In this document: positions 163-60,813 of the stretch, piece after piece
Layout of the letters: each line of letters starts with the position of its first letter
Numbering within the stretch: position 1 is the stretch's first letter
Assembly (NCBI GenBank): GCA_963829055.1
Contig: CAWHHI010000020.1
Coordinates: 576,001-640,000, forward strand
Origin: an uncultured Gemmatimonadaceae bacterium
GTDB taxonomy: Bacteria; Gemmatimonadota; Gemmatimonadetes; Gemmatimonadales; Gemmatimonadaceae
Direction of reading: 5' to 3'
DNA: 64,000 bases
Notes under the pieces: model-generated
The model's database searches: none
What the model was told of the DNA's origin: nothing
Seen by the model: only the letters and a program-made list of their open reading frames with translations
Translations under genes and position numbers: made by a program

Positions 163-801
163 ATGTCCTTCGATCAGCTCGTGAGCCTCGCGGTTGCCAA
201 CCGCTGGGAAGTCCTCGCCGTGGTGTTCGGCATCGTGAGCGTGTACCTGAGCACGCGCGAGCACATCTGGAGCTGGCCCACCGCGCTCGTGAACGTCGGG
301 CTGTACTTCGTCGTGTTCTATGAGGCGAAGCTGTACGCGGACATGGGGCTCCAGGTCGTGTACTTCGGGCTCTCGCTCTATGGCTGGTACGAATGGCTGT
401 ACGGCGGCGCCAACCGCACGGAGCTCCACGTCTCGCGCACCACACGACCGCTCGGCGTTAGGCTCCTGATCATCGGCATCGTCTGCGCGGCGGTGCTCGG
501 CACCCTGCTCGCCCGCTTCACCGATGCTGCGCTGCCGTACGTCGATTCGGCCACCACGAGCACGAGCCTCGTCGCGCAGTGGATGATGACGCGGAAGATT
601 CTGGAGAACTGGGCGGTCTGGATGGCGGTAGACGTCGTCTACGTCGGGATGTTCATCTACAAGCACCTCTACCTCACCGCCGGACTGTACACGGTGTTCT
701 TCGTGCTCGCCGTGATGGGGTATGTGCAGTGGAAGCGGTCCCTGGCGGAAAGACGGGAATCGGGAACGGGGAACCGGGAACTGGAAATCAGCCGCGTGTG
801 A
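163..801 (+). CDS. pnuC: Nicotinamide riboside transporter PnuC
   Basis: Multi-TM protein with W-x-WP, YADMGLQV, YGWYEW, PYVDS, AQWMMTRKILENW motifs; ATG at 163. Confidence 0.9.
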   Translation: MSFDQLVSLAVANRWEVLAVVFGIVSVYLSTREHIWSWPTALVNVGLYFVVFYEAKLYADMGLQVVYFGLSLYGWYEWLYGGANRTELHVSRTTRPLGVRLLIIGIVCAAVLGTLLARFTDAALPYVDSATTSTSLVAQWMMTRKILENWAVWMAVDVVYVGMFIYKHLYLTAGLYTVFFVLAVMGYVQWKRSLAERRESGTGNRELEISRV

Positions 802-1361
802 GCGGCTCGCACACCGGCCATCGTGCGGTTCCCGTTGTCGTGGTGACGGGGTCTGAATCGACGGGCAAGACCACGCTCGCGGGCGATCTCGCGCGTCATT
901 TCGGCACGGTGTGGGTGCCAGAGTACTCTCGCACCTATCTCGACGAGAAGACGGCGGCGACAGGGATGCCGCTCGATGCGAACGACGTCGAGCCGATAGC
1001 GCGCGGGCAGATCGCGGCTGAAGATCGCGGCATCACACAGGCGCACGGCCTGCTCGTTCTCGACACCGATCTCGTGAGCACCACCGTGTATGCTCGTCAC
1101 TACTACGGGAGTTGCCCGGCGTGGATCGATCAGGCCGCGCGCGAGCGTCGCGGCGATCTCTACCTGCTCTGTGACATCGACGTCCCATGGGTGCCTGACG
1201 AGGCGCGCGATCGCCCGCATGAACGCGCGCACATGCACGGACTGTTCGTCGGTGCGCTGGAGACGTTAGGCGCGCGGTACATCACCGTTCGCGGCTCGTG
1301 GGCGGAGCGCCGAGCGGCCGCGATCGCGGCGACGACGGCGCTCCTCGCCGGCAGTCAGTAG
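798..1361 (+). CDS. NadR-type ribosylnicotinamide kinase / AAA_28 ATPase (no adenylyltransferase domain)
   Basis: Walker A GSESTGKTT, VPEYSR, LDTD, DIDVPWVPD; GTG start overlaps the pnuC stop. Confidence 0.85.
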   Translation: MSGSHTGHRAVPVVVVTGSESTGKTTLAGDLARHFGTVWVPEYSRTYLDEKTAATGMPLDANDVEPIARGQIAAEDRGITQAHGLLVLDTDLVSTTVYARHYYGSCPAWIDQAARERRGDLYLLCDIDVPWVPDEARDRPHERAHMHGLFVGALETLGARYITVRGSWAERRAAAIAATTALLAGSQ

Positions 1362-1882
1362 CGAAGCACGTTCGTGCAGCTGACGGTGCCCTTCACGGCG
1401 ACGCCGGGCTGCGGCTGGAGGTCGAGCACTACGCGCGCGTCCTTCCCGTGGTCCTCGAGACGAACGGTTCCGCTACCTCCCTTGCGGCCACTCGTGGGGT
1501 TCGACCCGGACATGTAGAACGTGCCGTTCTTCGTGTCCATCACGGGACCGAATGAAAGAGACGCCTCGTAGTCGGCCGCCGGCGCAGGGCCTGTTCCGCT
1601 CGCGTCACGAATGCTCACGACGACGAATGTGAGCGCCCTGGGGTCTTTCGACCGAGCATCCGATTCCGGGATGCCGAAGTTCACGGAGAACTTCTTCGGC
1701 TTGCCGGCGCGTTCGGAGATCATGCATCCGACATCGGGCGGTGAGGCGAGTGTGTAGCTGCCGGCGTGTGGCCCGCCAATGACCTCGACGGTTGCCGTGC
1801 TCGAACGTCCCTGCGCGTGGAGATCGAGAACGCCGAAGACACAGAGCGCGGCGACACCCAGAGAATAATGCAAGCGAGACAT
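1355..1882 (-). CDS. Secreted hypothetical protein (paralog of 5747-6322)
   Basis: Signal peptide ending LHAQ, two Cys, beta-rich; C-terminus GGSGTV...KGTVSC. Confidence 0.7.
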   Translation of the reverse strand: MSRLHYSLGVAALCVFGVLDLHAQGRSSTATVEVIGGPHAGSYTLASPPDVGCMISERAGKPKKFSVNFGIPESDARSKDPRALTFVVVSIRDASGTGPAPAADYEASLSFGPVMDTKNGTFYMSGSNPTSGRKGGSGTVRLEDHGKDARVVLDLQPQPGVAVKGTVSCTNVLRY

Positions 1883-1923
1883 CGAGTTCCTCGGTGAATG
1901 ACAGAGTCGGTTGGTCGTGGCGA

Positions 1924-2593
1924 TCATGGCGCGGGTCGCTTCGCGGCACTCGCGGGCGGCACCGGCAGCGGCGCGGCCACCACCTTCTCCACCATGTTGG
2001 CGATGGCGGACTGCAGCGCCTTGCCTAACGGCGAATTGAGGAACGCCTGCGTGCTCCCCAGATCCCAGGCGCCGAGTGAGGTCCAGGCGGTGCCGGAGAA
2101 CTTGTTGTTCGTTTCCTTGCCGGTACTTCGCAGGCTGGCGATCTGCTCACCGCTGGCGACGTCGTAGAGCTCTCCCTGCAACGTGACGTTGGCCGTCACG
2201 GATCGGACGCCGACGTTGAGCGCCGTGCCGCGGATGCGTGGGAGCCAGCCACTCCTGGTCGACTCGTCCACACGCGCTTCCAGCACGGTGCCGACGAAGA
2301 CCACGTCCACTTTCTGCTGTCGACCGATCGCGACCGCCCGTGGCGCGATCCAGTTCCTCGATGCGCATGGCGGGATCGACGGTCAGGACGCGCGCCTCCA
2401 TCGCGGTGGCGTGCGCGACCTGGTCGTGCATCGTTAGGCTGACCGCCGGTCCGACAGCGCTGTTCCCGGAAGCCGTGGCGTCGCGGAACGGCAGGATGCC
2501 GAGCGTGATCGGTGCCGACCGGTGGCCTGCCGGGAGGCTCGTCATGGCGAGCACGGACAACGGCGCGATCCAGCGCCAGAGCATTGCGGTCAT
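1924..2593 (-). CDS. CsgG/FlgT/TolB-N-like secreted protein (frameshift near 2330)
   Basis: TLGILPFRD, then VDVVFVGTVLE...VTLQGELYDVASGEQI...PLGKALQSAI, a pattern typical of the CsgG-like fold; two ORFs joined. Confidence 0.6.
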
Positions 2594-3492: not shown

Positions 3493-3544
3493 AGCATCCA
3501 TTCAGCGTTAGGGTCGGCGTTAGGAGAACTGCGTTTCGTCTGAT

Positions 3545-4639: not shown

Positions 4640-5742
4640 CGTGACGCGCCAGCCGGGCAGGGCCGCGTCAGTTCCACGCGGCGGTTGCTCGCACGCCCCT
4701 CGAGCGTCGCGTTCGATTCGCGCGGGCGCGTCGCGCCGCGGCCCACCGCCCGAAGACGCGTCGCCGCCACGCCCAACCGCACCAGCGCCGCTCTCACCGA
4801 CTCCGCGCGGCGGAGCGAGAGCACCTGATTCGCGGACACACCGCCGATGCTGTCCGTGTGCCCCTCGATCACCAGATTCCAGCTGGGGTGCCGGTCGATG
4901 AGCCGCTGCGCGTCGGCGATCGCCTGCTCCGACGCCGGCTCGAGCTCGGCGCTGTTATACGCGAAGTACACCCCGGGAAGCTCGGCTTCACACTTCGCAG
5001 CGAGCGCCGCCTCCACATCGGCTCCCGACGACATCCCGGGGACTTCGACGCGAACGACCTGCAGCACGTCGGAACCGGTGACGATCTTGAGCAGCAGCGG
5101 ATGCGCGCGATCGGCGAGCACCCAGAAGTCGATGTCCACATGCTTCTCGCGGAGCGCGAAGCGCCCGCGCAGCGCGAGCACGGGAACCGACACGCGCACG
5201 CCGTTCACCAGCAGCGGAAACGGCATCGGCGCCGCGGACGCACGCGACAGCGTTCCCTTGAACAGCGCTCGGCTGTTGAAGATCATGCGCGCGATGCCCA
5301 TGGCGGCGAAGCCATCGGGGCCATCGAGCATGGTGTACGCGTATCTGACGTCGCGCCCCGCGCTGACCTCGTCGTACGCCGCGGTCGACAGCGTGAACGC
5401 CGTGTACCCCGGCGTCTCCGACTCGTCGCCGCTGAAGTACACGGTGTTGAGCCTCGGGGCACCAACGAGATCGGCGCGGCGAACGAACCGGTTGAGCTCC
5501 GCCACCTGCTGCTCGCCGCCACGACGCTCGCGGAGATGCCATCGGTACGAGACACCCGCCGACGATGCGTCCTGCACGACGACCACATTCTCCCGATCAC
5601 CTTCGGGAAAGCGCAGCGCGGACACTATCGTCAGCCCCTGAACGAGCGGGATCCGGGCGCGGTCCTGCGCGTACGCGGCTGACGTCGCGGCACTCGAGGC
5701 CAACCCGAGGGTCAGCGTCAGGCGGCTCCATACGTTAGGCAC
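4636..5742 (-). CDS. OmpA-family protein (C-terminal peptidoglycan-binding domain) with a novel N-terminal domain
   Basis: Signal peptide; VYFAYNSAEL, IEGHTDSIG, NQVLSLRRAESV, NRRVEL. Confidence 0.9.
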   Translation of the reverse strand: MPNVWSRLTLTLGLASSAATSAAYAQDRARIPLVQGLTIVSALRFPEGDRENVVVVQDASSAGVSYRWHLRERRGGEQQVAELNRFVRRADLVGAPRLNTVYFSGDESETPGYTAFTLSTAAYDEVSAGRDVRYAYTMLDGPDGFAAMGIARMIFNSRALFKGTLSRASAAPMPFPLLVNGVRVSVPVLALRGRFALREKHVDIDFWVLADRAHPLLLKIVTGSDVLQVVRVEVPGMSSGADVEAALAAKCEAELPGVYFAYNSAELEPASEQAIADAQRLIDRHPSWNLVIEGHTDSIGGVSANQVLSLRRAESVRAALVRLGVAATRLRAVGRGATRPRESNATLEGRASNRRVELTRPCPAGASR

Positions 5743-6456: not shown

Positions 6457-9339
6457 ATGCCTCGACTCTTCACCCTGGGCCGATTCGAGCTGCAGTCCGA
6501 CGACTCGCCGCGCGGCGCCATCGTCTCGACGCAGCCCAAACGACTCGCGCTGCTCGCCTATCTCGCCGTCGCGACACCGCGCGGCGTTCACCGGCGCGAC
6601 ACTCTACTCGGGCTCTTCTGGCCCGAGCTCGGTCAGGACGAAGCTCGGCGTGCGCTGCGCCAGGCGCTCTATCACCTGCGACAGGTACTTGGCAGCGACG
6701 CCATCGTCGCTCGCGCCGATGACCAGGTGGGCCTGCTGGACGACACGCTCTGGTGCGACGTCGTCGAGCTCGAGCGAGGTCTCGACGCGGGCGATACCGC
6801 TAAGCTCTCGAGCTCGGTTGCGCTCTACCAGGGCGACTTCCTCGCCGGGCTCTTCATTCCGGACGTCTCTCCGGATCTCGAAGAATGGATCGACCGCACC
6901 CGCTCCAGACTCCGCCAGCGCGCCATCGACGCCGGGTGGAAACTGGCCGAGCAAGGGGAGGCGAGCGGAGACCCGTCGGCCGCGGCCGACGCGGCGCGGC
7001 GCGCGCACGAGCTCGCGCCTAACGACGAGGTCGGACTGCGCCGGCTGCTTGGATTCCTGTCCAGACAGGGGCGCCGGAGCGAGGCGTTGGAGACGTTCGG
7101 CGCGTTCGCCCGCCGGCGCGAACTTGACGGCGACGACCCGCCCAGCCCGCAAACACGCGCGTTGGTCGACCAGATTCGCACCAGTCCCGCCGCTCTGGAC
7201 AGAGCTGAGACGTCCGTCTCGCCAAGCCCGGACGTCACCCGACCCTCGATCGGGGACGTCGCGTTGCGCGAGCTGCCCCGTTCAGATCCATCGCCGACGT
7301 TGCCTGCGGCAACCTCCGCACCCGGCGCCTCGGCCCGCCGTCCATGGCATTGGGCGGCGGTGGCTGTGGGCATCCTGACCGTCGCGACGGGCGCAGTGTT
7401 CGCACTCCGTAGTCACGAGAATGACGCCACGCGCACCGATGGCGCGACGCTCGCACCGCGCGACCGCGTTCTTGTGGCGGACTTCGTCACGCGTTCCCGC
7501 GATTCGACGGTCGGTGGCATCGTCGCCGAGGCGCTCCGCATCGACCTGGGACAGTCGCCGCTCATTCGCGTGATGACGACCGCACAGACGCGCGGCGCGC
7601 TGCGCGGGATGGAGCGTCCCGTCGAAGTGTCGTTGGACGATTCGCTCGCCCGCGCCGTGGCGCTGCGCGAAGGGGTGAAAGCGTTCGTGACGGGAGACGT
7701 CAGCGCGCTCGGCTCCTCCTATGTGCTCTCGGTCCGAGTGGTGGCGGCACTGACCGGAGACGAGCTGACGGCGCTCCGCGAGACCGCGCGCGATTCGGCC
7801 GACCTGATCGACGCGATCGACCGTCTTTCCGGACGTCTCCGGCGCCAGATCGGTGAAACGCTGCGCGCCGTCCGCGCCGACCCGCCGCTTCCCCAGGTGA
7901 TGACCGGGTCACTCGAAGCGCTGCGCTTATACACGCGGGCGATGAACGCGAAGGATATCGCAGGCGATCGCGCGACCGCGGTGCGTCTTCTCGAGGAGGC
8001 CATAGCACTCGATCCCGCGTTCGCGACCGCCTACCGCATGCTCGGGTCGACGTACGCGTCGATGGCCGAGCCGGGCCGCGCCGAACGGGCGCTGGAACGC
8101 GCGTTCGCGCATCGTGATCGGCTGCCGCTGAGAGACCGCTACCTGACGATGGGCAGCTACTACCGGAACGTGACCGCCGAGTACTCGAAGGCCGCGGCGG
8201 CGTACCGGTCGTTGCTGGAGCTGTATCCCACGGATCTGGCCGGCCTCAACAACCTCGGTCTCGTGTTGATGCGGGAGCGTCAGTACGCGGCGGCGGAGAG
8301 TCTCTTCCGGCGGGTGCTCGCCGTGGATTCCACCATCCCATTGGTGCATCTGGGGCTGGCCGAGGTGCTCACCATGCAGGCGCGTCATGACGCGGCGCGC
8401 CTAACGCTCGACGACGTGTGGCGTCGATTCCCGGACTACCCCACGACCGAGCTCACCGAGACGTACGCCGCGGCCGCGCAGCACGACTGGTCGTCGGCAC
8501 AGCGACACATCCGACGGCGATTGGCACAGTCCAAGGGGCAGGCGACGAACGAGTCCGATGCGTTGTTGACGCTTGGACAGATCGAGCTCCTCAGCGGCCG
8601 GCTGGCTGACGCGGAGCGTGACCTCCTCGGCTCGATGCGTCTGTCGTCGAAGGAGGAGTCGCCGGGTCGGTACTACGCGGGAGCCATCGCGCTCGCGTGG
8701 CTCGAGCTGCGCTACCGCGGGCGGATCACCCACGCGCTCGAGCGGGTGAGCGACGTGCTCGCGCGATACCCGCTCGACAGCATTGCGGTCGCCGACCGTC
8801 CATACGGAGAGCTGGCGGAGTTTCTGGCCGCCGCTGGCCAGCGGTCGCGTGCGCGCGCGTTGCTCATCGCCGTCGAACGCGATTCAGCCGCTATGCGGCG
8901 GCTTGCCGCGAGCGAGCTTCACGCCGTGCGCGGGGCCGTCGCGCTGGCCGAAGGGCGCGGCCGTGATGCCGTCGCCGAGTTCACACAGGAGGACAAGGCC
9001 GAATCGTGCCCCGTGTGCGCCCTTCCCGATCTCGCGAGGGCGTACGAGCAGGCGGGCGACATCGAGTCGGCGATCGCCGCGTACGAGCGTTATCTCGACA
9101 CACCGTGGATCTGGCGGTTCGAGTCGGACGCCCCGAACCTCGGGTGGTCTCGACGTCGGCTCGGAGAGCTGTACGAGCAGCAACGGCAATTCGGTAAGGC
9201 CGCGGATCAGTATGCGAAGCTGATCGCGCTCTGGAACGATGCCGACCCGCAATTGGGCGCCGCCCTCACCGACGTTCGCGCTCGTTATGCTCGGCTCCGC
9301 AATGCCGACGTTAGTCGAGCTCCATCTGCCGGACGTTGA
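6457..9339 (+). CDS. SARP-like wHTH-BTAD transcriptional regulator with TM helix, TolB-N-like domain and TPRs
   Basis: LFTLGRFEL, QPKRLALLAYL, LFWPE, LRQALYHLR, LYQGDFL, EEWIDR; TM WAAVAVGILTVATGAVFAL; many TPRs. Confidence 0.85.
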   Translation: MPRLFTLGRFELQSDDSPRGAIVSTQPKRLALLAYLAVATPRGVHRRDTLLGLFWPELGQDEARRALRQALYHLRQVLGSDAIVARADDQVGLLDDTLWCDVVELERGLDAGDTAKLSSSVALYQGDFLAGLFIPDVSPDLEEWIDRTRSRLRQRAIDAGWKLAEQGEASGDPSAAADAARRAHELAPNDEVGLRRLLGFLSRQGRRSEALETFGAFARRRELDGDDPPSPQTRALVDQIRTSPAALDRAETSVSPSPDVTRPSIGDVALRELPRSDPSPTLPAATSAPGASARRPWHWAAVAVGILTVATGAVFALRSHENDATRTDGATLAPRDRVLVADFVTRSRDSTVGGIVAEALRIDLGQSPLIRVMTTAQTRGALRGMERPVEVSLDDSLARAVALREGVKAFVTGDVSALGSSYVLSVRVVAALTGDELTALRETARDSADLIDAIDRLSGRLRRQIGETLRAVRADPPLPQVMTGSLEALRLYTRAMNAKDIAGDRATAVRLLEEAIALDPAFATAYRMLGSTYASMAEPGRAERALERAFAHRDRLPLRDRYLTMGSYYRNVTAEYSKAAAAYRSLLELYPTDLAGLNNLGLVLMRERQYAAAESLFRRVLAVDSTIPLVHLGLAEVLTMQARHDAARLTLDDVWRRFPDYPTTELTETYAAAAQHDWSSAQRHIRRRLAQSKGQATNESDALLTLGQIELLSGRLADAERDLLGSMRLSSKEESPGRYYAGAIALAWLELRYRGRITHALERVSDVLARYPLDSIAVADRPYGELAEFLAAAGQRSRARALLIAVERDSAAMRRLAASELHAVRGAVALAEGRGRDAVAEFTQEDKAESCPVCALPDLARAYEQAGDIESAIAAYERYLDTPWIWRFESDAPNLGWSRRRLGELYEQQRQFGKAADQYAKLIALWNDADPQLGAALTDVRARYARLRNADVSRAPSAGR

Positions 9340-52071: not shown

Positions 52072-54084
52072 ATGTGCGGAATAGCAGGCTTCTGGCGACA
52101 CGGTCCGATGGGAGACGATCCCCACTCCACGGCTCGGCGCATGGCCGCGGCGCTTGCGCATCGCGGGCCCGACGCCGAGGGCACGTGGGTCGACGAATAC
52201 GCCGGGATCGCGCTCACGCACCGGCGACTTTCCATCATCGACCTCTCGCCTCTCGGCAGTCAGCCGATGGTCTCGCCGGGAGGACGCTTCGTCATTGTCT
52301 TCAACGGCGAGGTGTACAACTACGCCGCATTGCGTAAAGAGCTCGAGGCGGGCGCCAATCCGGTCGTAACCTTCCGCGGTCACTCGGATACGGAGGTGAT
52401 GCTCGCCGCCATTGAAGCATGGGGTCTCGAAGCCGCTGTGCGTCGATTCGTGGGCATGTTCGCGTTCGCCCTGTGGGATCGGCAACAACACACGCTATGC
52501 CTCGTCCGCGATCGGCTGGGCATCAAGCCGCTGTACTACGGGTGGGGCGGCAACACGCTGTTGTTCGGCTCGGAGCTTCGAGCATTCACCGCCCACCCGG
52601 ACTTTCGAGGTGAGATCGACCGGAGCGCTGTCGCTCTCCTTCTCAAGCACAACTGCATCCCCGCGCCTCACTGCATTTATCGGGGCGTCTACAAGCTCCC
52701 TCCGGGATCGATCCTCACGTTAGGCAGCCCGGACTCGCGGGACACTTCGCCGGTCGCGTACTGGTCAGCGCGAGACGTCGCCGAGCGAGGCACGAGCGAT
52801 CCGTTCATGGGCACCGAGACGGAGGCGGTCGATCAGCTCGATACCCTGCTCCGAGAAGCGGTCTCACTCCGCATGATCGCGGACGTGCCCATCGGCGCGT
52901 TTCTGTCCGGGGGGCTGGATTCTTCGACGGTCGTCGCGCTCATGCAGGCGCAGAGTAGCCGACCGATCAAGACGTTTACGATCGGATCGACGGACGCGGG
53001 CTTCGACGAATCACGCCACGCACGCACGGTGGCGCGCCACCTCGGAACGGATCACACCGAGCTCGTAGTTACGCCCGAGGACGCGCTCGCCGTGATTCCA
53101 CGGCTTCCGACGCTATATGACGAACCGTTCGCTGACTCCTCGCAGATACCGACGTATCTCATCTCGGCGTTGACCCGACGCGACGTGACAGTCGCGCTCT
53201 CGGGCGATGGCGGCGACGAGCTGTTCGCCGGCTACAATCGGCACGTCTGGGCGAACCGCGTGTGGGCGGGAACGCGGTGGTTGCCGCGCGCCGTTCGGAA
53301 CGCACAGGCGAGCGCCATCACCGCGATCTCGCCGCGCACGTGGGACAGGTTGTTCGAGCGCGCGAGTCCTGTGATTCCGCGTGGGCTACGGTTCGGCACC
53401 CCGGGCTACAAGCTGCACAAGTTGGCTGGGGTCCTTTCCGCCCCGAGCCAGGAGGAGATCTACAACCGCCTGTCGTCGCACTGGGAAGCTCCGCTCTCCG
53501 TGGTGCTCGGAGCAACCGACCTTACGGCCGCGACGCCCGAGCCGGCCAGCCGCACGGCAGTGCCCAGCTTCATTGAGAAGATGTTGTACCTGGACCTCGT
53601 CACGTATCTGCCAGACGACATTCTGACGAAGGTAGACCGCGCGAGCATGGCTGTGGGGCTGGAAGCACGAGTGCCGATCCTCGACCATCGCGTCGTCGAG
53701 TTCGCGTGGCGCCTGCCGCTCTCCATGAAGTACCGAGACGGAACGAGCAAGTGGGTCTTGCGGCAAGTCCTCTACCGCTACGTGCCTCGGTCGCTCGTCG
53801 AGCGGCCGAAAGCCGGATTTGGCATTCCACTGGGTTCGTGGCTGCGCGGCCCGTTGCGGGAATGGGCCGAAGAGCTGTTAGACGAACGGCGTCTCGTCAG
53901 TGAGGGGTTCTTCAACCCGACGACGATCCGGCAGCGCTGGCAGGAGCACCTCACGGGAAAGAGAGGCTGGGAATACCATCTGTGGGATGTGCTGATGTTC
54001 CAGGCCTGGCTCGAGTCATCGCGGGCTTCGAATCCACCGTCGCACGCACGCCTGCCCGTCGATGCCGCTCAACCGGTCGGCTGA
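52072..54084 (+). CDS. asnB: Asparagine synthase-like amidotransferase 3 (WbpS-like)
   Basis: Intact 670 aa; MCGIAG, FLSGGLDSS, DEPFADSSQIPT, SGDGGDE. Confidence 0.92.
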   Translation: MCGIAGFWRHGPMGDDPHSTARRMAAALAHRGPDAEGTWVDEYAGIALTHRRLSIIDLSPLGSQPMVSPGGRFVIVFNGEVYNYAALRKELEAGANPVVTFRGHSDTEVMLAAIEAWGLEAAVRRFVGMFAFALWDRQQHTLCLVRDRLGIKPLYYGWGGNTLLFGSELRAFTAHPDFRGEIDRSAVALLLKHNCIPAPHCIYRGVYKLPPGSILTLGSPDSRDTSPVAYWSARDVAERGTSDPFMGTETEAVDQLDTLLREAVSLRMIADVPIGAFLSGGLDSSTVVALMQAQSSRPIKTFTIGSTDAGFDESRHARTVARHLGTDHTELVVTPEDALAVIPRLPTLYDEPFADSSQIPTYLISALTRRDVTVALSGDGGDELFAGYNRHVWANRVWAGTRWLPRAVRNAQASAITAISPRTWDRLFERASPVIPRGLRFGTPGYKLHKLAGVLSAPSQEEIYNRLSSHWEAPLSVVLGATDLTAATPEPASRTAVPSFIEKMLYLDLVTYLPDDILTKVDRASMAVGLEARVPILDHRVVEFAWRLPLSMKYRDGTSKWVLRQVLYRYVPRSLVERPKAGFGIPLGSWLRGPLREWAEELLDERRLVSEGFFNPTTIRQRWQEHLTGKRGWEYHLWDVLMFQAWLESSRASNPPSHARLPVDAAQPVG

Positions 54085-55404
54085 CAACGAGGCGTTGCCT
54101 GCGTCGGTTCTGTCGGGACCAACCGGCGAGCGCCGCGGACGATCGCATTCGACTCGTTCACATTACTACCGTACCCGAATCGCTGAATTTCCTCGCCGGG
54201 CAGGTGGGGTACATGACGGCGCGCGGCTTGAGCGTCACTGCGGTCTCGTCGCCGGGCAGCGAGCTCGGTGCCTTCGGGGCTCGCGAGGCCGTGCCGACAT
54301 ACGCCGTCGCAATGGCGCGGCGCATCACGCCGCTGCGCGATCTGATCTCCATATGGCAGATCTACCGCGTGCTGCGGCGCATCCGCCCGCACATTGTCCA
54401 CGCCCAGACCCCGAAGGGCGGTCTTCTGGGCACAATCGCCGCGTGGCTCGCCGGCGTACGCGTCCGCGTCTATCACATCCGCGGGCTGCCTCTCATGACC
54501 GCAACGGGTGCGCGCCGACGCCTGTTGTGGACCACGGAGCGAATCGCCTGCGGACTGTCTCACGCGGTACTCTGTGTCAGCCATTCGGTGCGTGACGTCG
54601 CTATCGCCGAGCGGCTGTGCGCGCCGGGCAAGATCACGGTCCTGCTCGGAGGTAGCGGTAACGGAGTCGATGCGGAGGGGCGCTTCGATCCGCGCCATGA
54701 GCCCGACCGCCGCGACACGCACGCGGGAACGCCTCGGCATCCCGCCTAACGCGGACGTGATCGGATACGTCGGGCGCATCGTCCGGGACAAAGGCGTGGT
54801 CGAGCTCGTGCGCGCGTGGTCGGCGCTGCGCAATGCCTATCCGAACGCGCGGCTGCTGATCGTCGGGCCGTTTGAACCGCAGGATCCGATTCCGCGCGAC
54901 GTCGAGGACATCCTTCGTGGCGACCCGCGCGTTCACCTGACAGGGCAGGTGCATGAGACAGCGCCACTGTACGCAGCCATGGACCTCGTCGTCCTGCCGA
55001 CGTACCGCGAGGGGTTTCCCAACGTGCCGCTCGAAGCGGCATCGATGGGACTCCCGGTAGTCGCGACGCGTGTCCCAGGCTGCACGGACGCGGTGGAGGA
55101 CGGGGTGACCGGAACACTCGTCGCCCCGCGGGACTCGGGGGCGCTCGCCGATGCCGTCGGGGCATACTTGCGAGACAGCGACCGCCGAAGCGCGCATGGG
55201 AGCGCCGGACGCCGGCGCGTGCTGCTCGAGTTCCGTCGCGAGTTGATATGGGACGCGCTGTACGCCCATTACATCACGCTGCTGAAACGACACGGCCGCA
55301 CTGGGCCCCGGATGCCACGAGTCCCGGTTGGCGAGGTGCCACCGGGACTCGGGAATCGGGCTGCAACACCCGAGGAAACACCAGAGGACGCGACGTATCG
55401 TTAG
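54062..55404 (+). CDS. Glycosyltransferase family 4 (frameshifted; start approximate)
   Basis: HITTVP.SL, TPKGGLLG, GSGNGVD, GRIVRDKG, PTYREGFPNVPLEAA. Confidence 0.88.
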
Positions 55405-55464
55405 GCGCGAGCGGTATCGCTCAGGCGCTCGGGTCGGCCCAGGCGCCTGGGTAGGTCTCCGGGG

Positions 55465-56667: not shown

Positions 56668-59078
56668 GCGCCACCGTCAGCACGGCCATACCGGTCTTTC
56701 CCTCACTCGTCGCGATGACGTTCGCGGTGCCAGCGGCCACCGTCGTAACCAGTCCGGTGGCGGAGACCTGGGCGACCGACGAAGCCGACGACGACCAAGT
56801 CACCGACCGCCCCGTCAGCACGTTCCCCGCCGCGTCCGTGAGCGACGCCGACGCCTGCGTGGTCTGACCCACGATGAGCGACGTCGACGACAGCGACACG
56901 GAGACGGTAGCCACCGGTATCGGCGAAACGGTGAGCGAGAGTGATCCGCTCTTTCCCTCGCTCGTCGCGGTCACCGTCACCGAGCCACTCGCGACGCCTT
57001 TCACCAGGCCGCTCGGCGAAACCGTCGCCACTGCTGTATTCGACGACGTCCAGCCCACGGTGCGTCCGGTGAGCTCGCGGCCGATCGCGTCCTTGATTGT
57101 CACGGTCACCGATAACGTCGACCCAACGACCAGCGACGTCGAGCTCGCCGATAGCGTTACGGTCGCCACCGGCGCGGGGGCCGGCGCGTCGATGGTCACC
57201 GTCGCGGCGCCGGTTTGATTCTCGCTCGTCGCTACGATCGATGCCGAACCCGCGCTCACGGCCGTCACCACTCCGGTAGGCGAAACCGTCGCCACGCCGG
57301 TGTTGGCGCTTGACCAGGTCACCGTGCGACCGGTCAACGGATTGCCCGCTGCATCCCGAAGGACCGCGGTTGCCTGTGTCGTCGCCCCGATCGCCACTGA
57401 CGCCGACGCCAGCGTCACCGACACTGACGCGACCGGCGCTGGCGGCGGCTCCGCGACGGTGACCGCTGTCGTGGAGCTGATGTCGTCAGCGACGGCGGAG
57501 ATCGTGGCGCTTCCGCCGCCCATCGCCTTCACCAATCCCGCCGGTCCGACGGTCGCCACCGCCGTGTTGGAGCTCGACCAATTCACTGCGCGATCGGCGA
57601 GCGGCACGCCCGATGCGTCGCGCACGGTAGCCGAAAGCGTCGCGGTATCACCTGTTGTGAGCGAGAGGCTGGCCGGAGACACGACGACGGACGCGGCAGG
57701 AATCACCGTGACCGACACGGGGGCCGACGAGGCCAGCCCACTGGACGACGCCTGAACGGATGTGCTGCCGATCGCGGCGGCGCTGACAGCGCCGGATGCC
57801 GTGACGGGCGCGACTGCGCTGTTCGCGCTCGCCCATTTGATCGTTTGGTTCGGGATGGCGACTCCCTTCGCGTCGCGCACCTCCGCCTGCAGCTGCGTAT
57901 TCTGGCCGACCGTGAGCGAGACGCTCGACGGGAGGATGGCGATCGATGCCGGCACGGGTGCGCTGATGGTCAGCGACGCGTTGCCGATTTTCGCTTCGCA
58001 GATGGCGCTGATGGTCACGGACCCGTTCGCGACAGCGGTCACGAGGCCCTTGGAGTCCACCGCGGCGAGCGCGGGATTGGAGCTCTGCCAGGCGATGGTG
58101 CGCCCCGTCAGGACGTTGCCCTGCGCGTCCTTCACGGTGGCGGTGGCTTGCGTGGTCTGTCCGACCGACAGCGTCCCGCTGCCTAACGACACGCCGACCG
58201 TGGCCGCCGGCACGCCAAGCACGTTCACGGACGCCGTGGCTTTCTTGCTCTTCGACTGCGCCGTGATGATCGCGAGTCCCTTCGCGACACCCGTGACGAG
58301 GCCAGCGTCCGAGACGGTGGCAATCGATGGATTCGAGGACGACCACTTTGGAACGACACCGCTCACGATGCGTCCGTTGTCATCGAGCGCGGAGGCGGTG
58401 AGCTGCAGGCTTTCGCCAGGAAGGATCGAGGCGTTCAGCGGTGCCACCGTGAGGGACGACGTCGATCCACGAAGGACGTCGACCGAGGCCGACGCCGTGA
58501 CGCCGCTCAGCTGCGCACTGATCGTCACCGATCCCTCTTCGAGACCGGTCATCACGCCATCAGCGCTGATGGTCGCCACCGTCGGATCGGAGCTCACCCA
58601 CTGAACGCTCGCCCCACTTGCCGCAACCGTCCCCGCCGCGGTGGTCGTCGACGCGACGAGACGGAGCGAATCGCCGAGCATAACGAGTGCGGCTCCAGGC
58701 AACACCGCGAGCGACGGCGGCGACTGAATGATGACGGTCGCGGTGTCTGGCGCGGCGCCCGCCTGAACGATGATGTGAGCGACACCAGGCGTTAGGCCCG
58801 CGACCAGCCCCGCGGCCGAAACAGTCGCGACGGACGGGTTGTCGGATCGCCATTCGACCGCGTGATCACGGGTGACGTTCCGATCGTCGAAGACGCGAGC
58901 GGTCAGCTGGGAGCTGGCCCCGGTCGTTATGGTATCTGCTTTTGGTGAGACCGAGACGCGAAAGGCTGATGGTGGGCGTGCTACTGCTGCCCGGGCTCAT
59001 GGAGTCGGGGCTGCAGCCCTCGACCATGACGCTCATGACGAGTAAGGACGCCGTGACCGTGCGGATAAGCGGTCGCAT
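55465..59078 (-). CDS. Lipoprotein with about nine Big_2 Ig-like repeats and the shared beta-propeller-like C-terminal domain (frameshifted)
   Basis: Lipobox VEGC; nine W.S....VA.V..G repeats; C-terminus ASPDGKRVVFASNWG...DIRPICP. Confidence 0.8.
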
Positions 59079-59096
59079 GGACCCCTCCGTGAGGGT

Positions 59097-59196
59097 ACGT
59101 TCGGCGGCTCGGCCGGCGTGGCACGCGACCCGACGCGTGCGGTAGCCCCGTTGGCTTTGCGTCCCCGGCTTTCGCCGGGTTTGCCCTTGTCGCGTC
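59097..59196 (-). ncRNA. c-di-GMP-I (GEMM-I) riboswitch
   Basis: GCGACAAGGGCAAACCCGGC-GAAA-GCCGGGGACGCAAAGCC..GGGGCTA...GCCGAGCCGCCG, directly upstream of the 59078 ATG. Confidence 0.9.
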
Positions 59197-59436
59197 ACCC
59201 TCAGGGGGTGGTGCGATCTTGCCAATCAGTTTTCGATGACGTCCGGATGACGACCCGCGCTTTGGGCGCGTCACCCGCACGGCGGCACGGTCCTTCACGC
59301 GACCCCCATTTTGTCGCGTGATCACATCGTTAGGCGGTCCGGCGGCGCAGAGTTACTGTGATGCAGCGCTCATTCAACGACAGCGCGTCGGGACAGTGCA
59401 ACCATCATGGCGAAATGCGAGTGCCGCGCGATCACG

Positions 59437-60813
59437 TTAGGCACCGTGCGATGGCTGTTCGTCACGATGCCGGCCTCTCCACCACGTGACGAGCCCCATC
59501 GCGGCCAGCACGCACACGAACGGCATCGCCGGATGACGGAAACGGCCGACACCCACGGGCCCGCCGGCTATGGTGATGAAGTAGGCGATGCTCAGCACCG
59601 AGAGCAGCACCGCCGGGTCGAGTGTACGATGTTCGGCAAGCCACCCCCGTACTGCCAGGGCGTACATGAAGACGAGAAACATCCCGAGCACGCCGAGCAA
59701 CACGAAGGCGAGCAGGTTCGTGTGCAGGATGCGCCGGATCCCGGCTGCGAGCCCATCGGTCACGACCACGCTCAGCACACCGCTGTTCCCCTCGTACAGC
59801 CCGTACGACTGCAGCAGCGAGAGTGCGCCCGGGTCGAGCATCACGCGCGTCATGCCGGCGACGTGAATTCGCGCGTAGAGCGGAAGGTTCGCCTTGACGA
59901 TCCGGCCGCCTTCAGCGCCCATGTAGGTGAAGCGGCGCCCTCGCGACCACGTTGCCTGCTCCGGGTGACGCCGCAGGTAGACGCGGCCGTCGTGGTAGCC
60001 CCACGCCGTTTGCACGTCAGCGTAGGATCTCCCTTCTCTCCTCGCCTCGACGGCCGCGGCGTTGTAGAAGTACATGTTGACGGCCGAGATCGCGGAAAAT
60101 CCGCCAAAGTCGAGCGCTCGATTCCGGATGTGCCACGGCGCAACGATCGACAGAGCCACCACCGTCGCGAGCACGAAGTGGCTCAGCCGACGCCAATCAC
60201 GAGCGGCGATCGCCGCCGCGGCGAGGAACGCCAACAGTCCAAACGAGAGGTAGTACCCGGCCGGACGGACGTACGCCGCAACCGAAAGGAGCGCAGTCCC
60301 GGCCAGGAGCGCGGAGCGCTTCGGCGCGCGAACATACGCGACCAACAGGGCGACGGCCCAGACGACGAGGAGTGTGAAGAGCGTCTCCGTGCCTAACGCG
60401 GATGTCGCTCTGACCGAGATCGGTTCGAACGCGTAGAGCGCAGCCGCAATGAGCCCTGCGCGCGCGTCGCCCGTTACCCTGCGCGCAACGACGAACACAC
60501 CCAGCGTCGTGAGCACCGACAGCGCCACCTGGATCACGATCGTGACCGGAACCACATGTCCCGACCAGAGCCCGACGACCAGAAGGAGCGGATAGCCGGG
60601 CGTGCGCTCGAGCTCGGGGATTCCACGCACCGCGAAGGTTCCGCGGGCCAGCAGCTCACGCGCCGGTGCCAGGTACGACTCGCTGTCCTGCTCGATGAAC
60701 ACGCTCGGATCGCGCGTTACCAGCCACGCTCCGAGCGCGTACGCCATGCGAACCGCCGCGGCAATGACGAGCAGCCAGATCAGCAGTTCCCGCTCCCGCG
60801 GTTGCGCTCGCAT
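59437..60813 (-). CDS. ArnT/PMT-like (GT-C) membrane glycosyltransferase
   Basis: QDSESYL, RTPGYPL, TETLF, YVRP, PWHIRN, RFRHPAMP; multi-TM. Confidence 0.78.
   Translation of the reverse strand: MRAQPRERELLIWLLVIAAAVRMAYALGAWLVTRDPSVFIEQDSESYLAPARELLARGTFAVRGIPELERTPGYPLLLVVGLWSGHVVPVTIVIQVALSVLTTLGVFVVARRVTGDARAGLIAAALYAFEPISVRATSALGTETLFTLLVVWAVALLVAYVRAPKRSALLAGTALLSVAAYVRPAGYYLSFGLLAFLAAAAIAARDWRRLSHFVLATVVALSIVAPWHIRNRALDFGGFSAISAVNMYFYNAAAVEARREGRSYADVQTAWGYHDGRVYLRRHPEQATWSRGRRFTYMGAEGGRIVKANLPLYARIHVAGMTRVMLDPGALSLLQSYGLYEGNSGVLSVVVTDGLAAGIRRILHTNLLAFVLLGVLGMFLVFMYALAVRGWLAEHRTLDPAVLLSVLSIAYFITIAGGPVGVGRFRHPAMPFVCVLAAMGLVTWWRGRHRDEQPSHGA

What the first reader, a model, noticed from the sequence alone, without database searches (positions are those of the whole stretch)
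456..60398. Highly iterated non-palindromic octamer CGTTAGGC/GCCTAACG: a candidate uptake-like or protein-binding genome signature
Seen: a manual scan found about 45 exact copies, roughly 23 as CGTTAGGC and 22 as GCCTAACG (e.g. 456, 1264, 2023, 5733, 7017, 11861, 20351, 29261, 41651, 52718, 60391). About 10 more 7-mer CGTTAGG/CCTAACG variants occur, including a tandem pair at 3506/3518. That is about one per 1.4 kb, while a simple composition model at about 68% GC (estimated by eye) predicts only 2-3. Most copies lie inside genes, in several frames, and some force TTA/CTA codons that are otherwise rare here. Established: Neisseria and Pasteurellaceae uptake sequences behave this way (about 1 per kb, both strands, within genes), Chi and KOPS are strand-skewed, and cyanobacterial HIP1 is palindromic. 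Inference: a lineage-specific DNA uptake, recombination, methylation or nucleoid-binding motif that I cannot match to a described one.
Basis: partly seen in the sequence, partly recalled or inferred. Interest (0 to 1): 0.85.

Follow-up and report, generated by a model that had tools for sequence, protein, structure and literature searches.

The report
Genome-wide DNA word matching integron core
This soil bacterium has written the eight-letter DNA word CGTTAGGC about 5,000 times through its genes on both strands, much like the "self tags" of Neisseria and Haemophilus, and the word is the same one that ends integron gene cassettes; what reads it is unknown.

Summary
The genome holds 5,004 copies. 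Called genes hold 3,429, against 51-165 under codon-preserving shuffles.

The word lies in all six frames and supplies 426 of 7,327 stop codons. It has no flank signal and no replichore skew, and its spacing is more even than random. Sites are kept between congeners at 77% identity: 15 of 31, against 14% of other 8-mers.

- **Where it occurs:** some Gemmatimonadaceae genera and, as TCGTTAGGC, Chthoniobacterales; nowhere else among 185,579 species genomes.
- **Integron link:** it equals the R' core of these lineages' own integron attC sites, but fewer than 2% of copies lie in attC-like pairs.
- **No tracking gene found:** IntI, RecC, AddAB-like nucleases, Vsr, five DNA-methylase families and ComEC do not follow its abundance.

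Best reading (about 0.35): an uptake-sequence-like self word whose specificity was borrowed from the attC core.

This scan has flagged the same word before on other genomes. I found no description in print.

The parts
456..463 (+). word copy; in gene 163-798(+) (PnuC-like), sense frame 2, GGC GTT AGG CTC = GVRL
1264..1271 (+). word copy; gene 837-1358(+), sense frame 1, ACG TTA GGC = TLG; kept in 4 of 5 congeners
2023..2030 (-). word copy; gene 1927-2355(-), sense frame 1, PLG
2432..2439 (+). word copy outside called genes
3506..3524 (+). two 7-mer variants CGTTAGG, 12 bp apart (3506-3512 and 3518-3524)
5733..5740 (+). word copy; gene 4639-5748(-) (OmpA-like), antisense frame 2, VPNV
7017..7024 (-). 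word copy; gene 6466-9336(+) (BTAD/TPR), antisense frame 2, APND
8399..8406 (-). word copy; gene 6466-9336(+), antisense frame 1, RLT
11417..11424 (-). word copy; PQQ-dehydrogenase gene 11111-12136(-), sense frame 1, TLG; kept in 3 of 5 congeners; three other rich genera carry the word 9 nt upstream at a P-L-G
11861..11868 (+). word copy; same gene, antisense frame 1, RLT; kept in 5 of 5 congeners
12678..12685 (+). word copy outside called genes; kept in 0 of 5 congeners
14040..14047 (+). word copy; gene 13453-14778(-), antisense frame 2, MPNV
16174..16181 (-). word copy; MacB/FtsX permease gene 16019-17320(-), sense frame 2, VVRR
17011..17018 (+). word copy; same gene, antisense frame 2, GPND
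19154..19161 (+). word copy; gene 18953-21601(-), antisense frame 1, RLT
20351..20358 (-). word copy; gene 18953-21601(-), sense frame 1, ALG
21532..21539 (-). word copy; gene 18953-21601(-), sense frame 2, RVRR
23070..23077 (+). word copy; gene 22384-23721(-), antisense frame 2, WPNA
23449..23456 (-). word copy; gene 22384-23721(-), sense frame 1, PLG
23868..23875 (-). word copy; gene 23517-24728(-), sense frame 1, ALG
25163..25170 (-). word copy outside called genes
27576..27583 (-). word copy; gene 27482-28396(+), antisense frame 1, RLT
28394..28401 (-). word copy whose TAA is the stop codon of gene 27482-28396(+)
29261..29268 (+). word copy; gene 28948-29382(+), sense frame 1, ALG
30145..30152 (-). 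word copy whose TAA is the stop codon of gene 29464-30147(+)
31650..31657 (+). word copy; ORF 31624-31815(+), sense frame 2, GVRR
31865..31872 (-). word copy outside called genes
35114..35121 (-). word copy whose TAG is the stop codon of gene 35119-36648(-)
35248..35255 (+). word copy; gene 35119-36648(-), antisense frame 1, GLT
38035..38042 (+). word copy outside called genes
39388..39395 (+). word copy outside called genes
39642..39649 (-). word copy; Wza-like gene 39625-40284(+), antisense frame 2, APNA
41651..41658 (+). word copy; gene 40602-43805(+), sense frame 2, LVRQ
46378..46385 (-). word copy; glycosyltransferase gene 45435-46400(+), antisense frame 1, RLT
48677..48684 (-). word copy outside called genes
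50097..50104 (+). word copy; asparagine-synthase ORF 49988-50866(+), sense frame 1, ALG
51066..51073 (+). word copy outside called genes
51578..51585 (-). word copy; gene 51351-52067(+), antisense frame 2, LPNV
52718..52725 (+). word copy; asparagine-synthase gene 52165-54081(+), sense frame 1, TLG
54744..54751 (-). word copy whose TAA is the stop codon of gene 54183-54746(+); it also lies in the start of gene 54733-55401(+) (PPNA)
55399..55406 (+). word copy whose TAG is the stop codon of gene 54733-55401(+)
58181..58188 (-). word copy; Big_2-repeat gene 55424-58927(-), sense frame 1, SLG
58790..58797 (+). word copy; same gene, antisense frame 1, GLT
59328..59335 (+). word copy outside called genes
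59435..59442 (+). word copy whose complement supplies the TAA stop codon of gene 59440-60786(-)
60391..60398 (-). word copy; gene 59440-60786(-), sense frame 1, ALG

Best explanation
CGTTAGGC is a DNA-level 'self' word. It is not a protein, RNA, codon or repeat-element feature. A fixation bias acting on the double-stranded word keeps it at about one copy per 1.5 kb, in either orientation, throughout the resident genome. The most likely mechanism is the one known from Neisseria DUS and Pasteurellaceae USS. A DNA-import step prefers fragments that carry the word, and homologous recombination then replaces word-less alleles with word-bearing ones. Over time the word is written wherever the coding sequence tolerates it, and one copy per fragment-sized stretch is enough. 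The specificity was probably taken from a signal that already existed in these lineages, the R' core of integron attC sites. This would explain why two unrelated soil phyla share one core with different flanks. Shown here: the statistics, anatomy, conservation, turnover, taxonomic spread and identity with attC R'. Inferred: uptake bias, the drive, and the direction attC to genome. The reader protein is unknown.
For: Abundance: 5,004 copies in 7.78 Mb, split 2,547/2,457. It is the highest observed/expected 8-mer in the genome, at 19x an order-3 Markov model. Called genes hold 3,429 copies against 165 or 51 under codon-preserving nulls. Anatomy: no information in the flanks. All four open frames are used (1,375, 465, 635 and 954 copies), and the two stop frames are used as real stop codons in 426 of 7,327 genes. 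There is no replichore skew: on contig C16, 146+/99- on one side of a terminus-like flip and 164+/182- on the other, which follows gene strand. Spacing is more even than Poisson, with 215 gaps under 200 bp against 611 expected, and per-gene counts are under-dispersed. Conservation: 15 of 31 site-by-congener comparisons are intact, against 4,277 of 29,972 other 8-mers, at 76-78% identity. Local turnover: window site 456 is replaced by a site at 449 in three congeners. A P-L-G codon triplet reads CCG TTA GGC in three other rich genera, CCA CTC GGC in a word-poor genome, and in G000 the word sits 9 nt away. Foreign DNA: a 49.6-kb segment carrying second, roughly 50%-identical copies of aroC, DAHP synthase, ftsK, pepA and trpB has no copy at all. 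Dialects: T precedes the word in 87% of 404 copies in G423 and in 90 of 91 in G420, against 25% in G000. Import genes: ComEC is found in 17 of 17 word-rich genomes; DprA and a secretin are present in G000; five type IV pilin-like ORFs were found. The attC R' ends of the same lineages carry the word with the lineage's own flank.
Against: No competence or uptake bias has been shown for either phylum, and I found no paper on it. ComEC, DprA, ComEA-like genes and the secretin are just as present in word-poor relatives. In G000 the only ComEA-like hit is an 81-aa fragment. No candidate receptor was identified. DUS and USS words drift into dialects between genera, whereas here the 8-mer core is identical across at least 8 genera and two phyla. 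That needs an external anchor, and the attC link I propose for it is untested. Distribution is patchy even within a genus: G294 has 66 copies while three congeners have 3,479-4,141. On a rough single-gene ComEC tree the word-bearing lineages are interleaved with poor ones. Neisseria-type inverted pairs at terminators are not seen; close pairs are depleted. Every sequence feature listed in favour is also expected of a selection-maintained chromosomal word such as HIP1.
Confidence: 0.35

Rival explanations
1. A selection-maintained chromosomal word of the HIP1 type. An intracellular protein reads the word at regular intervals, for example a nucleoid-organising factor or a scanning self/non-self system that spares DNA carrying the word. 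Purifying selection on each copy, not import bias, keeps it abundant.
For: Hyper-abundance, positional conservation and even spacing are the same arguments used for HIP1 (abstract of PMC5861425). The word is absent from the foreign 49.6-kb segment. Word-rich Gemmatimonadaceae are unusually poor in classical self/non-self tools. In 12 rich genomes I found PF00145 in 0, Vsr in 0, PF01555 in 2 (both weak) and PF02384 in 3. In 19 poor relatives the counts were 7, 7, 13 and 12. This would fit a word-based system standing in for restriction-modification.
Against: No reader was found. The kin are not independent: the rich set is about four lineages. The five word-rich Verrucomicrobiota do carry methylases. 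HIP1 is palindromic and tied to orphan methylases, and neither holds here. No known system uses an orientation-free 8-mer as an intracellular self mark.
Confidence: 0.3
2. The integron machinery reads the word. The integrase IntI, or a relative of it, binds genomic copies as double-stranded R-box or attG-like sites, and its activity or selection for landing sites spreads the word.
For: The word fits GTTRRRY, the core shared by attI and attC, with crossover between G and TT (PMC8876359, passages). It is the R' end of real attC hairpins in G025, G027, G421 and G000. IntI scores over the family cut-off in 5 of 5 rich Verrucomicrobiota, and at least a partial IntI hit occurs in 8 of 11 other rich Gemmatimonadaceae, 6 of them full length over the cut-off. 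IntI can use double-stranded genomic attG sites with a G|WT core plus a downstream CRGM motif (bioRxiv 10.1101/2022.09.11.507474, passages).
Against: IntI is also present in 15 of 21 word-poor family members. On the IntI tree, rich and poor genomes are interleaved. G000's only full-length homologue scores at the cut-off (265.7 against 265 bits), sits on a long branch, and differs from the 90% consensus of 34 IntIs at the K of the K-G..D-R block and the first H of H..R-H. G002, G004 and G402 show no IntI, and G014 only fragments. The tolerated variants (position 4 C, position 6 T, position 8 G) and untolerated ones (position 6 A, position 7 A) do not follow GTTRRRY degeneracy. Only 70 of 5,004 copies have a GCCTAAC 40-160 nt upstream. 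Thousands of integrase targets inside genes would be harmful.
Confidence: 0.1
3. A methylation- or repair-driven word. A methyltransferase marks the word, and a very-short-patch-type repair or a methylation-dependent process biases mutation toward it.
For: The two most enriched one-off variants are C-to-T changes at the two end cytosines (TGTTAGGC 14x, CGTTAGGT 21x). Restriction-modification specificities are mobile and could in principle be shared across phyla.
Against: G000 has no hit to PF00145, PF01555 or PF02384, and only a 65-residue fragment of PF02086. Vsr is found in 0 of 12 rich Gemmatimonadaceae and 1 of 5 rich Verrucomicrobiota. The Eco57I-domain protein of about 1,070 aa is present in 38 of 38 Gemmatimonadales searched, rich and poor alike, and absent from 2 of 5 rich Verrucomicrobiota. 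All substitutions at positions 2 and 7 are equally rare, not only transitions.
Confidence: 0.05
4. A Chi-like signal that modulates a helicase-nuclease during double-strand-break repair.
For: It is a non-palindromic 8-mer at a density similar to Chi. A self-protecting role would fit its absence from foreign DNA.
Against: There is no replication-related skew. RecC is found in 0 of 12 rich Gemmatimonadaceae. AddAB-like PDDEXK_1 pairs are found in 2 of 9 rich Gemmatimonadaceae and 2 of 5 rich Verrucomicrobiota, but in several poor genomes.
Confidence: 0.03
5. Not a DNA signal: a by-product of a protein motif, codon bias, a repeat element or an assembly artefact.
For: None beyond the mild excess of the A/T/S/P-L-G frame.
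Against: All six frames are used. Enrichment survives codon-preserving shuffles. The flanks carry no information. Density is higher outside called genes, 0.92 against 0.57 per kb. The word is present in dozens of independent assemblies.
Confidence: 0.01

Closest known systems
DNA uptake sequences: DUS of Neisseriaceae (read by the minor pilin ComP) and USS of Pasteurellaceae
   Same: A short non-palindromic word at about 0.6-1 per kb. Both strands are equal and there is no replichore skew. It lies inside genes in every frame against codon habit, is conserved at orthologous sites, is missing from foreign DNA, and has lineage 'dialects' (here a T-extended form in Verrucomicrobiota).
   Different: No competence or uptake bias is known for these phyla, and no receptor was found. 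The core is identical across two phyla instead of drifting. The word equals the integron attC R' core. There are no inverted-pair terminators. Abundance flips within a genus.
HIP1 (GCGATCGC) of cyanobacteria
   Same: An 8-mer that is 15- to 300-fold over-represented, conserved within and between reading frames, and of unknown function after decades of study (abstract of PMC5861425).
   Different: HIP1 is palindromic and embeds the sites of orphan methylases (abstract of PMC4390886, search listing). This word is non-palindromic, and G000 shows none of the three main methylase families.
Integron attC/attI core site GTTRRRY (R' box) and inverse core RYYYAAC (R'' box)
   Same: The letters match: GTTAGGC/GCCTAAC. 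In these lineages the attC R' end reads (T/C)CGTTAGGC, including the flanking C and, in Verrucomicrobiota, the T.
   Different: attC sites are 60-130-nt hairpins at cassette ends next to an integrase. More than 98% of the genomic copies are isolated 8-mers inside ordinary genes, with no partner box and no hairpin. IntI presence does not predict abundance.
Chi sites of RecBCD/AddAB
   Same: A non-palindromic 5-8-mer, over-represented in the core genome, that acts as a self signal.
   Different: Chi is strand-skewed with replication and needs RecBCD or AddAB. Here there is no skew, and those enzymes are missing from most word-rich genomes.

Membership tests
DNA uptake sequence (DUS/USS) | Short word hyper-abundant genome-wide (about 1 per kb) | tested here: met
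   5,004 copies in 7.78 Mb. Called genes hold 67x the cleaned codon null. It is the top observed/expected 8-mer.
DNA uptake sequence (DUS/USS) | Equal on both strands, with no replication skew | tested here: met
   2,547/2,457 overall. The 100-kb bins follow only gene strand.
DNA uptake sequence (DUS/USS) | Lies within genes in several frames, overriding codon usage | tested here: met
   Four open frames plus two stop frames are used. 46% of TTA codons lie in the word.
DNA uptake sequence (DUS/USS) | Shared by related species, with dialects | tested here: met
   All 7 genus genomes and at least 7 further genera carry it. The TCGTTAGGC form occurs in Chthoniobacterales.
DNA uptake sequence (DUS/USS) | Depleted in foreign or recently acquired DNA | tested here: inconclusive
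   One clear case: a 49.6-kb foreign or chimeric segment has 0 copies. The other long gaps (10-16 kb) hold ordinary genes and are close to the exponential tail.
DNA uptake sequence (DUS/USS) | The organism takes up DNA with a preference for the word | not testable with these tools
   This needs uptake or transformation assays.
DNA uptake sequence (DUS/USS) | Competence machinery present (ComEC, DprA, secretin, pilins, ComEA) | tested here: met
   ComEC is in 17 of 17 rich genomes. G000 has DprA, a secretin and 5 pilin-like ORFs, but its only ComEA-like hit is an 81-aa fragment. The same genes occur in word-poor relatives, so this does not discriminate.
DNA uptake sequence (DUS/USS) | A dedicated receptor (ComP-type pilin in Neisseria) | not tested
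   No ComP_DUS search was run, and no candidate was identified.
HIP1-like iterated palindromes | Palindromic word | tested here: not met
   CGTTAGGC is not its own reverse complement.
HIP1-like iterated palindromes | Cognate orphan DNA methyltransferases | tested here: not met
   G000 has 0 hits to PF00145, PF01555 and PF02384, and a fragment only of PF02086.
Chi | Orientation bias with replication | tested here: not met
Chi | RecBCD or AddAB present | tested here: not met
   RecC is in 0 of 12 rich Gemmatimonadaceae. PDDEXK_1 pairs are in 2 of 9.
Integron attC site | Core matches GTTRRRY/RYYYAAC | tested here: met
   By inspection against the consensus quoted in PMC8876359.
Integron attC site | Imperfect hairpin R''-L''...L'-R' at the cassette end, in an array | tested here: not met
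   This holds for arrays in G025 and G027 and for a few sites at G000:C20:119-208 kb. However, only 70 of 5,004 copies have a GCCTAAC 40-160 nt upstream, and the flanks carry no information.
Integron attC site | Dependence on an integron integrase | tested here: not met
   IntI is in 15 of 21 poor and 8 of 11 rich family members, and G000's copy looks inactive.
REP/MITE-type repeats | Conserved sequence or structure beyond the core | tested here: not met
   Relative entropy is at most 0.13 bit at every flank position.

The most novel reading that the evidence does not exclude
The word is the password of an undescribed DNA-import or self-recognition system whose specificity was copied from the R' core of integron attC sites. 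Kin DNA and integron gene cassettes would then carry the same tag. These soil bacteria would preferentially admit or spare both, and the resulting drive has written the cassette-end word through whole genomes in two phyla. In the richest Gemmatimonadaceae this may have gone along with the loss of restriction-modification.
Probability: 0.15. Interest if true: 0.95.

Novelty: new variant of a known kind. Interest (0 to 1): 0.8.

Why it matters
Genome-wide "self words" are known from only a few lineages: DUS, USS, HIP1 and Chi. HIP1 still has no function after decades of study. This is a new example, as strong as those, in two abundant and barely cultured soil phyla.

It has two features that the known cases lack:
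- The core is identical across phyla.
- The spelling is that of the integron cassette recombination core.

If the link is causal, it would connect natural gene import with the integron cassette pool, and it would give a handle on how soil bacteria recognise exchangeable DNA.

Practically, the word is a sharp marker for binning. It exposed a 50-kb foreign segment inside a contig of this assembly. It can also flag recently acquired DNA in these genomes.

Tried and rejected
1. **Chi-like reading.** There is no replichore skew. RecC is absent from all 12 rich Gemmatimonadaceae. AddAB-like genes are absent from 7 of 9.
2. **Dcm/Vsr-type drive.** PF00145 is found in 0 of 17 rich genomes and Vsr in 1 of 17.
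3. **A methylase as reader.** PF01555, PF02384, PF02086 and PF07669 do not separate rich from poor genomes. For a moment the Eco57I-domain protein of about 1,070 aa looked promising, with hits in 4 of 4 rich genomes. It then turned out to be present in 38 of 38 Gemmatimonadales.
4. **IntI as determinant.** Neither its presence nor its clade tracks the word.
5. **"Other words" in poor relatives.** One search suggested that G294 and G007 have their own hyper-abundant words. One search showed these are local tandem-heptamer or 13-mer elements, and in G008 a D-G-K protein repeat. G096, G069 and G090 show nothing above noise. I withdrew that lead.
6. **Horizontal-transfer outliers.** I compared the G000 proteome with 400 kb of G423. 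The top identity was 71%, with no outlier. The sample is only about 10% of that genome.
7. **Pilin candidates.** A degenerate prepilin pattern found 5 pilin-like ORFs. I did not follow them across genomes.
8. **Viral contigs.** The triple-word scan gave 0 hits, but its power is very low.
9. **Other long word-free gaps (10-16 kb).** They hold ordinary metabolic genes, with one plasmid-type RPA gene. The gaps are roughly what an exponential tail gives.
10. **Apparent '+'-only run in G420 in the listing.** Fetching the DNA showed 57+/34-, so this was a listing effect.
11. **Max-order Markov expectation (5,066).** It is uninformative because the word dominates its own sub-words.
12. **Literature.** The word itself appears only in primers and unrelated contexts. 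No paper in the listings joins uptake sequences with these phyla. Iterated-octamer searches return HIP1 work only.

Full report
**Observation**

100 dinucleotide-preserving shuffles gave a mean of 0.96 and a maximum of 4. There are 55 copies of the 7-mer CGTTAGG, the 45 plus 10 more, including the pair at 3506 and 3518.

The window is G000:C20:576001-640000, part of a 7.78-Mb assembly of 20 contigs at 66.7% GC. Genome-wide there are 5,004 copies (2,547/2,457). This makes it the 14th commonest 8-mer despite its TTA/TAG content. It also has the highest observed/expected ratio of any 8-mer, 19x an order-3 Markov model.

**Nulls**

I called genes with a crude codon-usage caller (7,341 ORFs covering 78% of the genome).
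- Called genes hold 3,429 copies.
- Shuffling synonymous codons within each gene gives 165 +/- 13 copies (20 shuffles, maximum 191).
- When the codons inside the word are kept out of the pool, the shuffle gives 51 copies (12 shuffles).

The second, a base-calling artefact, is excluded because the word is just as abundant in six other assemblies of the genus and in many assemblies of relatives.

**Anatomy**

- Flanks carry at most 0.13 bit at any position, so this is not a repeat element.
- All four open frames are used: xCG TTA GGC 1,375 copies, xxC GTT AGG Cxx 465, xGC CTA ACG 635 and xxG CCT AAC Gxx 954.
- The two stop frames serve as real stop codons in 426 of 7,327 genes. GCC-TAA-CG and CGT-TAG-GC are the two commonest stop contexts, and the former accounts for 230 of 890 TAA stops.
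- 46% of all TTA codons lie in the word.
- Density is higher outside called genes, 0.92 against 0.57 per kb.
- Copies are spread uniformly along genes.
- In the window, 30 copies lie in open frames, 6 supply stop codons and 9 lie outside called genes. The genes are ordinary: PnuC, OmpA-like, PQQ dehydrogenase, MacB/FtsX permeases and an exopolysaccharide cluster.

**Strand and spacing**

There is no replication-linked skew. Contig C16 has a terminus-like flip of GC skew and gene strand near 550 kb. The word runs 146+/99- to its left and 164+/182- to its right, which the mild sense preference within genes explains.

Spacing is more even than random. There are 215 gaps under 200 bp against 611 expected, and 2,593 gaps of 400-1,600 bp against 2,086 expected. 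Per-gene counts have variance below the mean. Close inverted pairs are not enriched.

**Foreign DNA**

The one extreme gap is 49.6 kb at G000:C6:5440-55037, with GC of 0.70. It carries second copies of aroC, DAHP synthase, ftsK, pepA and trpB that are only about 47-56% identical to the copies elsewhere in the genome. It is therefore a foreign or chimeric segment, and it has no copy of the word.

The other long gaps (10-16 kb) hold ordinary genes and are near the exponential tail.

**Variants**

Against the cleaned codon null, the one-off variants fall into two groups.
- Tolerated: position 1 (T 14x, A 3x, G 2.4x), position 8 (T 21x, G 4.5x, A 2.8x), position 6 T (4.4x) and position 4 C (2.8x).
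- Not enriched or depleted: every change at positions 2 and 7 (0.09-0.4x) and position 6 A (0.08x).

The apparent depletions are partly an artefact, because the null pool of TTA and CTA codons is itself dominated by variants of the word. The profile reads Y-G-T-T/c-A-G/t-G-C/t/g. It does not follow the degeneracy of GTTRRRY.

**Evolution**

Congeners are only 76-78% identical to the window where they can be aligned. Even so, 15 of 31 site-by-genome comparisons keep the word intact, against 4,277 of 29,972 other 8-mers (14.3%) in the same alignments. These cover 8 sites in 5 related genomes, so the comparisons are not independent.

Turnover is local. Window site 456 is replaced by a copy at 449 in three congeners.

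In the PQQ dehydrogenase gene, a conserved P-L-G is spelled differently across genera:
- CCG TTA GGC in G014, G305 and G241, which are three other word-rich genera.
- CCA CTC GGC in the word-poor G294.
- CCG CTC GGC in G000, which carries the word 9 nt downstream instead.

The exopolysaccharide cluster at window 40-60 kb has no alignable DNA in 4 of 5 congeners, yet it has normal word density.

**Distribution**

In 401 genomes (148 genera) of the phylum, the word is abundant only in some genera of one family.
- The window's own genus: 2,501-5,112 copies in 7 of 7 genomes.
- G014: 6,360 copies.
- G305: 4,469 copies.
- G241, G298 and G402: 3,479-4,141 copies.

About ten further genera have intermediate counts, including one genus of a second family and two genera of a third. 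Nothing outside that order exceeds the reversed-word control. G294, placed in the same genus as G241, G298 and G402, has only 66 copies. Four genomes in these tallies are unpublished (G013, G086, G204, G125).

A three-word pattern was scanned over one genome for each of 185,579 species and gave 37 hits. By record title, 19 are Gemmatimonadaceae or Gemmatimonadota and 18 are Chthoniobacterales, Spartobacteria or Verrucomicrobiae, and none come from anywhere else. Five of the latter genomes hold 2,349-3,510 copies in 3.7-4.5 Mb, balanced between strands.

In that second phylum the word has a dialect. T precedes it in 87% of 404 copies in 400 kb of G423 and in 90 of 91 copies in 96 kb of G420, against 25% in G000.

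A rough ComEC tree (FastTree, one gene, 36 sequences, supports not inspected) puts the word-bearing lineages in at least three groups interleaved with poor ones. Either many losses or several gains are therefore needed. At genus-level divergence, neutral decay could erase the word, which is an inference on my part.

**The integron link**

This lead came from earlier notes of this scan, and I tested it here. The 7-bp core GTTRRRY is shared by attI and attC, with crossover between G and TT (review PMC8876359, passages read). GTTAGGC fits that consensus.

- In word-poor relatives, the few copies sit in same-strand runs about 550 bp apart. These are classical attC hairpins with GCCTAAC(A) at one end and (T/C)CGTTAGGC at the other (G027 and G025).
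- G000 has an IntI homologue at C20:208041-208958(-), about 370 kb from the window. A one-orientation run of the word lies at small-ORF boundaries beside it, and attC-like sites with both ends spelled as the full 8-mer lie at C20:119-192 kb.
- The two Verrucomicrobiota attC sites I could see end in TCGTTAGGC, which matches that phylum's genomic dialect.
- Only 70 of the 5,004 copies have a GCCTAAC 40-160 nt upstream, and many of those are chance pairs of ordinary copies.

So the genome-wide phenomenon does not consist of attC sites. It uses the same spelling.

**What does not read it**

IntI does not explain abundance.
- It is found in 40 of 56 genomes searched. That includes 15 of 21 word-poor family members, only 8 of 11 other rich ones, and 5 of 5 rich Verrucomicrobiota.
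- On a 34-sequence IntI tree, rich and poor genomes interleave. The four Verrucomicrobiota IntIs form one clade among the Gemmatimonadales sequences. The tree is midpoint-rooted with no outgroup, so true nesting is not proven.
- G000's homologue scores at the family cut-off, sits on a long branch, and differs from the 90% consensus at the K of the K-G..D-R block and the first H of H..R-H, while keeping the tyrosine. By my recollection these are the catalytic Lys and His, so the protein is probably inactive.

Other candidates also fail to track the word.

| Family | Rich Gemmatimonadaceae | Rich Verrucomicrobiota | Word-poor relatives |
|---|---|---|---|
| RecC | 0 of 12 | 3 of 5 | 1 of 19 |
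| PDDEXK_1 (AddAB-like) | 2 of 9 | 2 of 5 | 9 of 15 |
| PF00145 (C5 methylase) | 0 of 12 | 0 of 5 | 7 of 19 |
| Vsr | 0 of 12 | 1 of 5 | 7 of 19 |
| PF01555 | 2 of 12 | 5 of 5 | 13 of 19 |
| PF02384 | 3 of 12 | 4 of 5 | 12 of 19 |

- PF02086 gives only a fragment in G000.
- An Eco57I-domain protein of about 1,070 aa is universal in the order, present in 38 of 38 genomes.
- ComEC (41 of 43 genomes), DprA, a secretin and ComEA-like genes are present in rich and poor genomes alike.

Word-rich Gemmatimonadaceae are thus notably poor in classical restriction-modification genes. However, the rich set is only about four independent lineages, and the rich Verrucomicrobiota do carry methylases.

**Reading**

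The sequence evidence shows a DNA-level word held at high and even density by a fixation bias. It cannot tell import bias (a DUS/USS-type drive) from intracellular selection (HIP1-type).

I rank the uptake-like drive first, at about 0.35, because it is the only known mechanism that produces all these features. I add the inference that the specificity was borrowed from the attC R' core. That would explain the identical core in two phyla and the match between each lineage's flank and its own attC sites.

The main rival, at about 0.3, is a selection-maintained word read inside the cell, possibly as a self mark. Integrase-read, methylation- or repair-driven and Chi-like readings are each disfavoured by specific tests above.

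**Novelty**

Searches of the held literature found no description of this word. The word itself turns up only in primers and unrelated contexts. No listed paper joins uptake sequences with these phyla. Iterated-octamer searches return only HIP1 work. The library lacks most subscription journals.

Earlier agents of this scan reported the same word, the integron resemblance and a second phylum on other genomes.

- the naming of the second phylum by an unbiased scan of all species genomes;
- its T-extended dialect, and the attC flank that matches it;
- the verified attC arrays in word-poor genomes;
- the negative profiles for IntI, RecC, AddAB-like nucleases, Vsr and five methylase families;
- the probably inactive IntI of G000;
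- the use of the word as a stop codon;
- the cross-genus codon evidence.

Noticed in passing
G000:C6:5440-55037 (L001-L003): A 49.6-kb stretch at the start of contig C6 (GC 0.70, no copy of the word) carries second copies of aroC, DAHP synthase, ftsK, pepA and trpB, only 47-56% identical to those elsewhere in the genome. Many of its ORFs are fragmented. It is probably a chimeric join, a mis-binned piece, or a large foreign insert.
   Followed up: partly
G000:C20:119000-209000 (L034, L057), about 370 kb before the window: A chromosomal integron. The IntI homologue at 208041-208958(-) scores at the family cut-off and has changes at two conserved catalytic-block positions. Cassette-like small ORFs and attC-like sites lie on its 3' side, so the integrase and cassettes are co-oriented.
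   Followed up: partly
window:13169-13317 (also 6532-6710): A roughly 150-bp long imperfect palindrome (GTCATTCCGAGCGGAGCG...CGCTCCGCTCGGAATGAC). Dozens of copies at 75-94% identity occur, on both strands, in each congener. It resembles the cross-phylum palindromic repeat noted earlier by this scan (e1-751961).
   Followed up: no
window:59100-59195(-) and window:63129-63228(-): Two c-di-GMP-I riboswitch aptamers (RF01051, 57.5 bits each). They lie upstream of the Big_2-repeat surface protein gene 55424-58927(-) and of gene 61061-62281(-).
   Followed up: no
window:49015-50866, 40602-44197, 26754-27491; G000:C15:11673-16010; G000:C12:494302-494424: Several genes appear split or truncated: an asparagine synthase in two overlapping ORFs, MurJ, Polysacc_synt_2, AddAB-like fragments and an 81-aa ComEA-like piece. 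This suggests indel errors in the assembly or limits of my crude gene caller.
   Followed up: no
L157-L161 (G294) and L189-L192 (G026): Intergenic elements made of tandem heptamers in inverted pairs: (GGGTTCA)n in G294 at 3-4 loci per 100 kb, and (GGGGYTA)n in G026 at about 10 loci per 80 kb. G007 has one inverted array of a 13-mer (CGTAACTGARGRG).
   Followed up: partly
genomes G000-G006, G241, G298, G402 against G294 and other relatives: Word-rich Gemmatimonadaceae almost lack classical restriction-modification and end-processing genes. In the window's genus (7 genomes of 5.7-7.8 Mb) I found PF00145 in 0, Vsr in 0, PF01555 in 0, PF02384 in 1 and RecC in 0. The word-poor congener G294 has all three methylase families and AddAB-like genes, which its three rich congeners lack.
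   Followed up: partly
for example G005:C183:6156-7010, G294:C24:5268-6119, G096:C1:3196412-3197263: A roughly 1,050-1,140-aa protein with an Eco57I-type methylase domain is present once in 38 of 38 Gemmatimonadales genomes searched, like a core gene.
   Followed up: no
L095, L097, L098, L100 against Gemmatimonadales IntI loci: The integron integrases of the Chthoniobacterales genomes form one clade that falls among Gemmatimonadales IntIs on a midpoint-rooted tree. This hints at integron exchange between the two phyla.
   Followed up: partly
window:40001-60000: The exopolysaccharide gene cluster has no alignable DNA in 4 of 5 congeners, with one 67%-identical match in G002. It is therefore accessory, yet it carries the word at normal density.
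   Followed up: no
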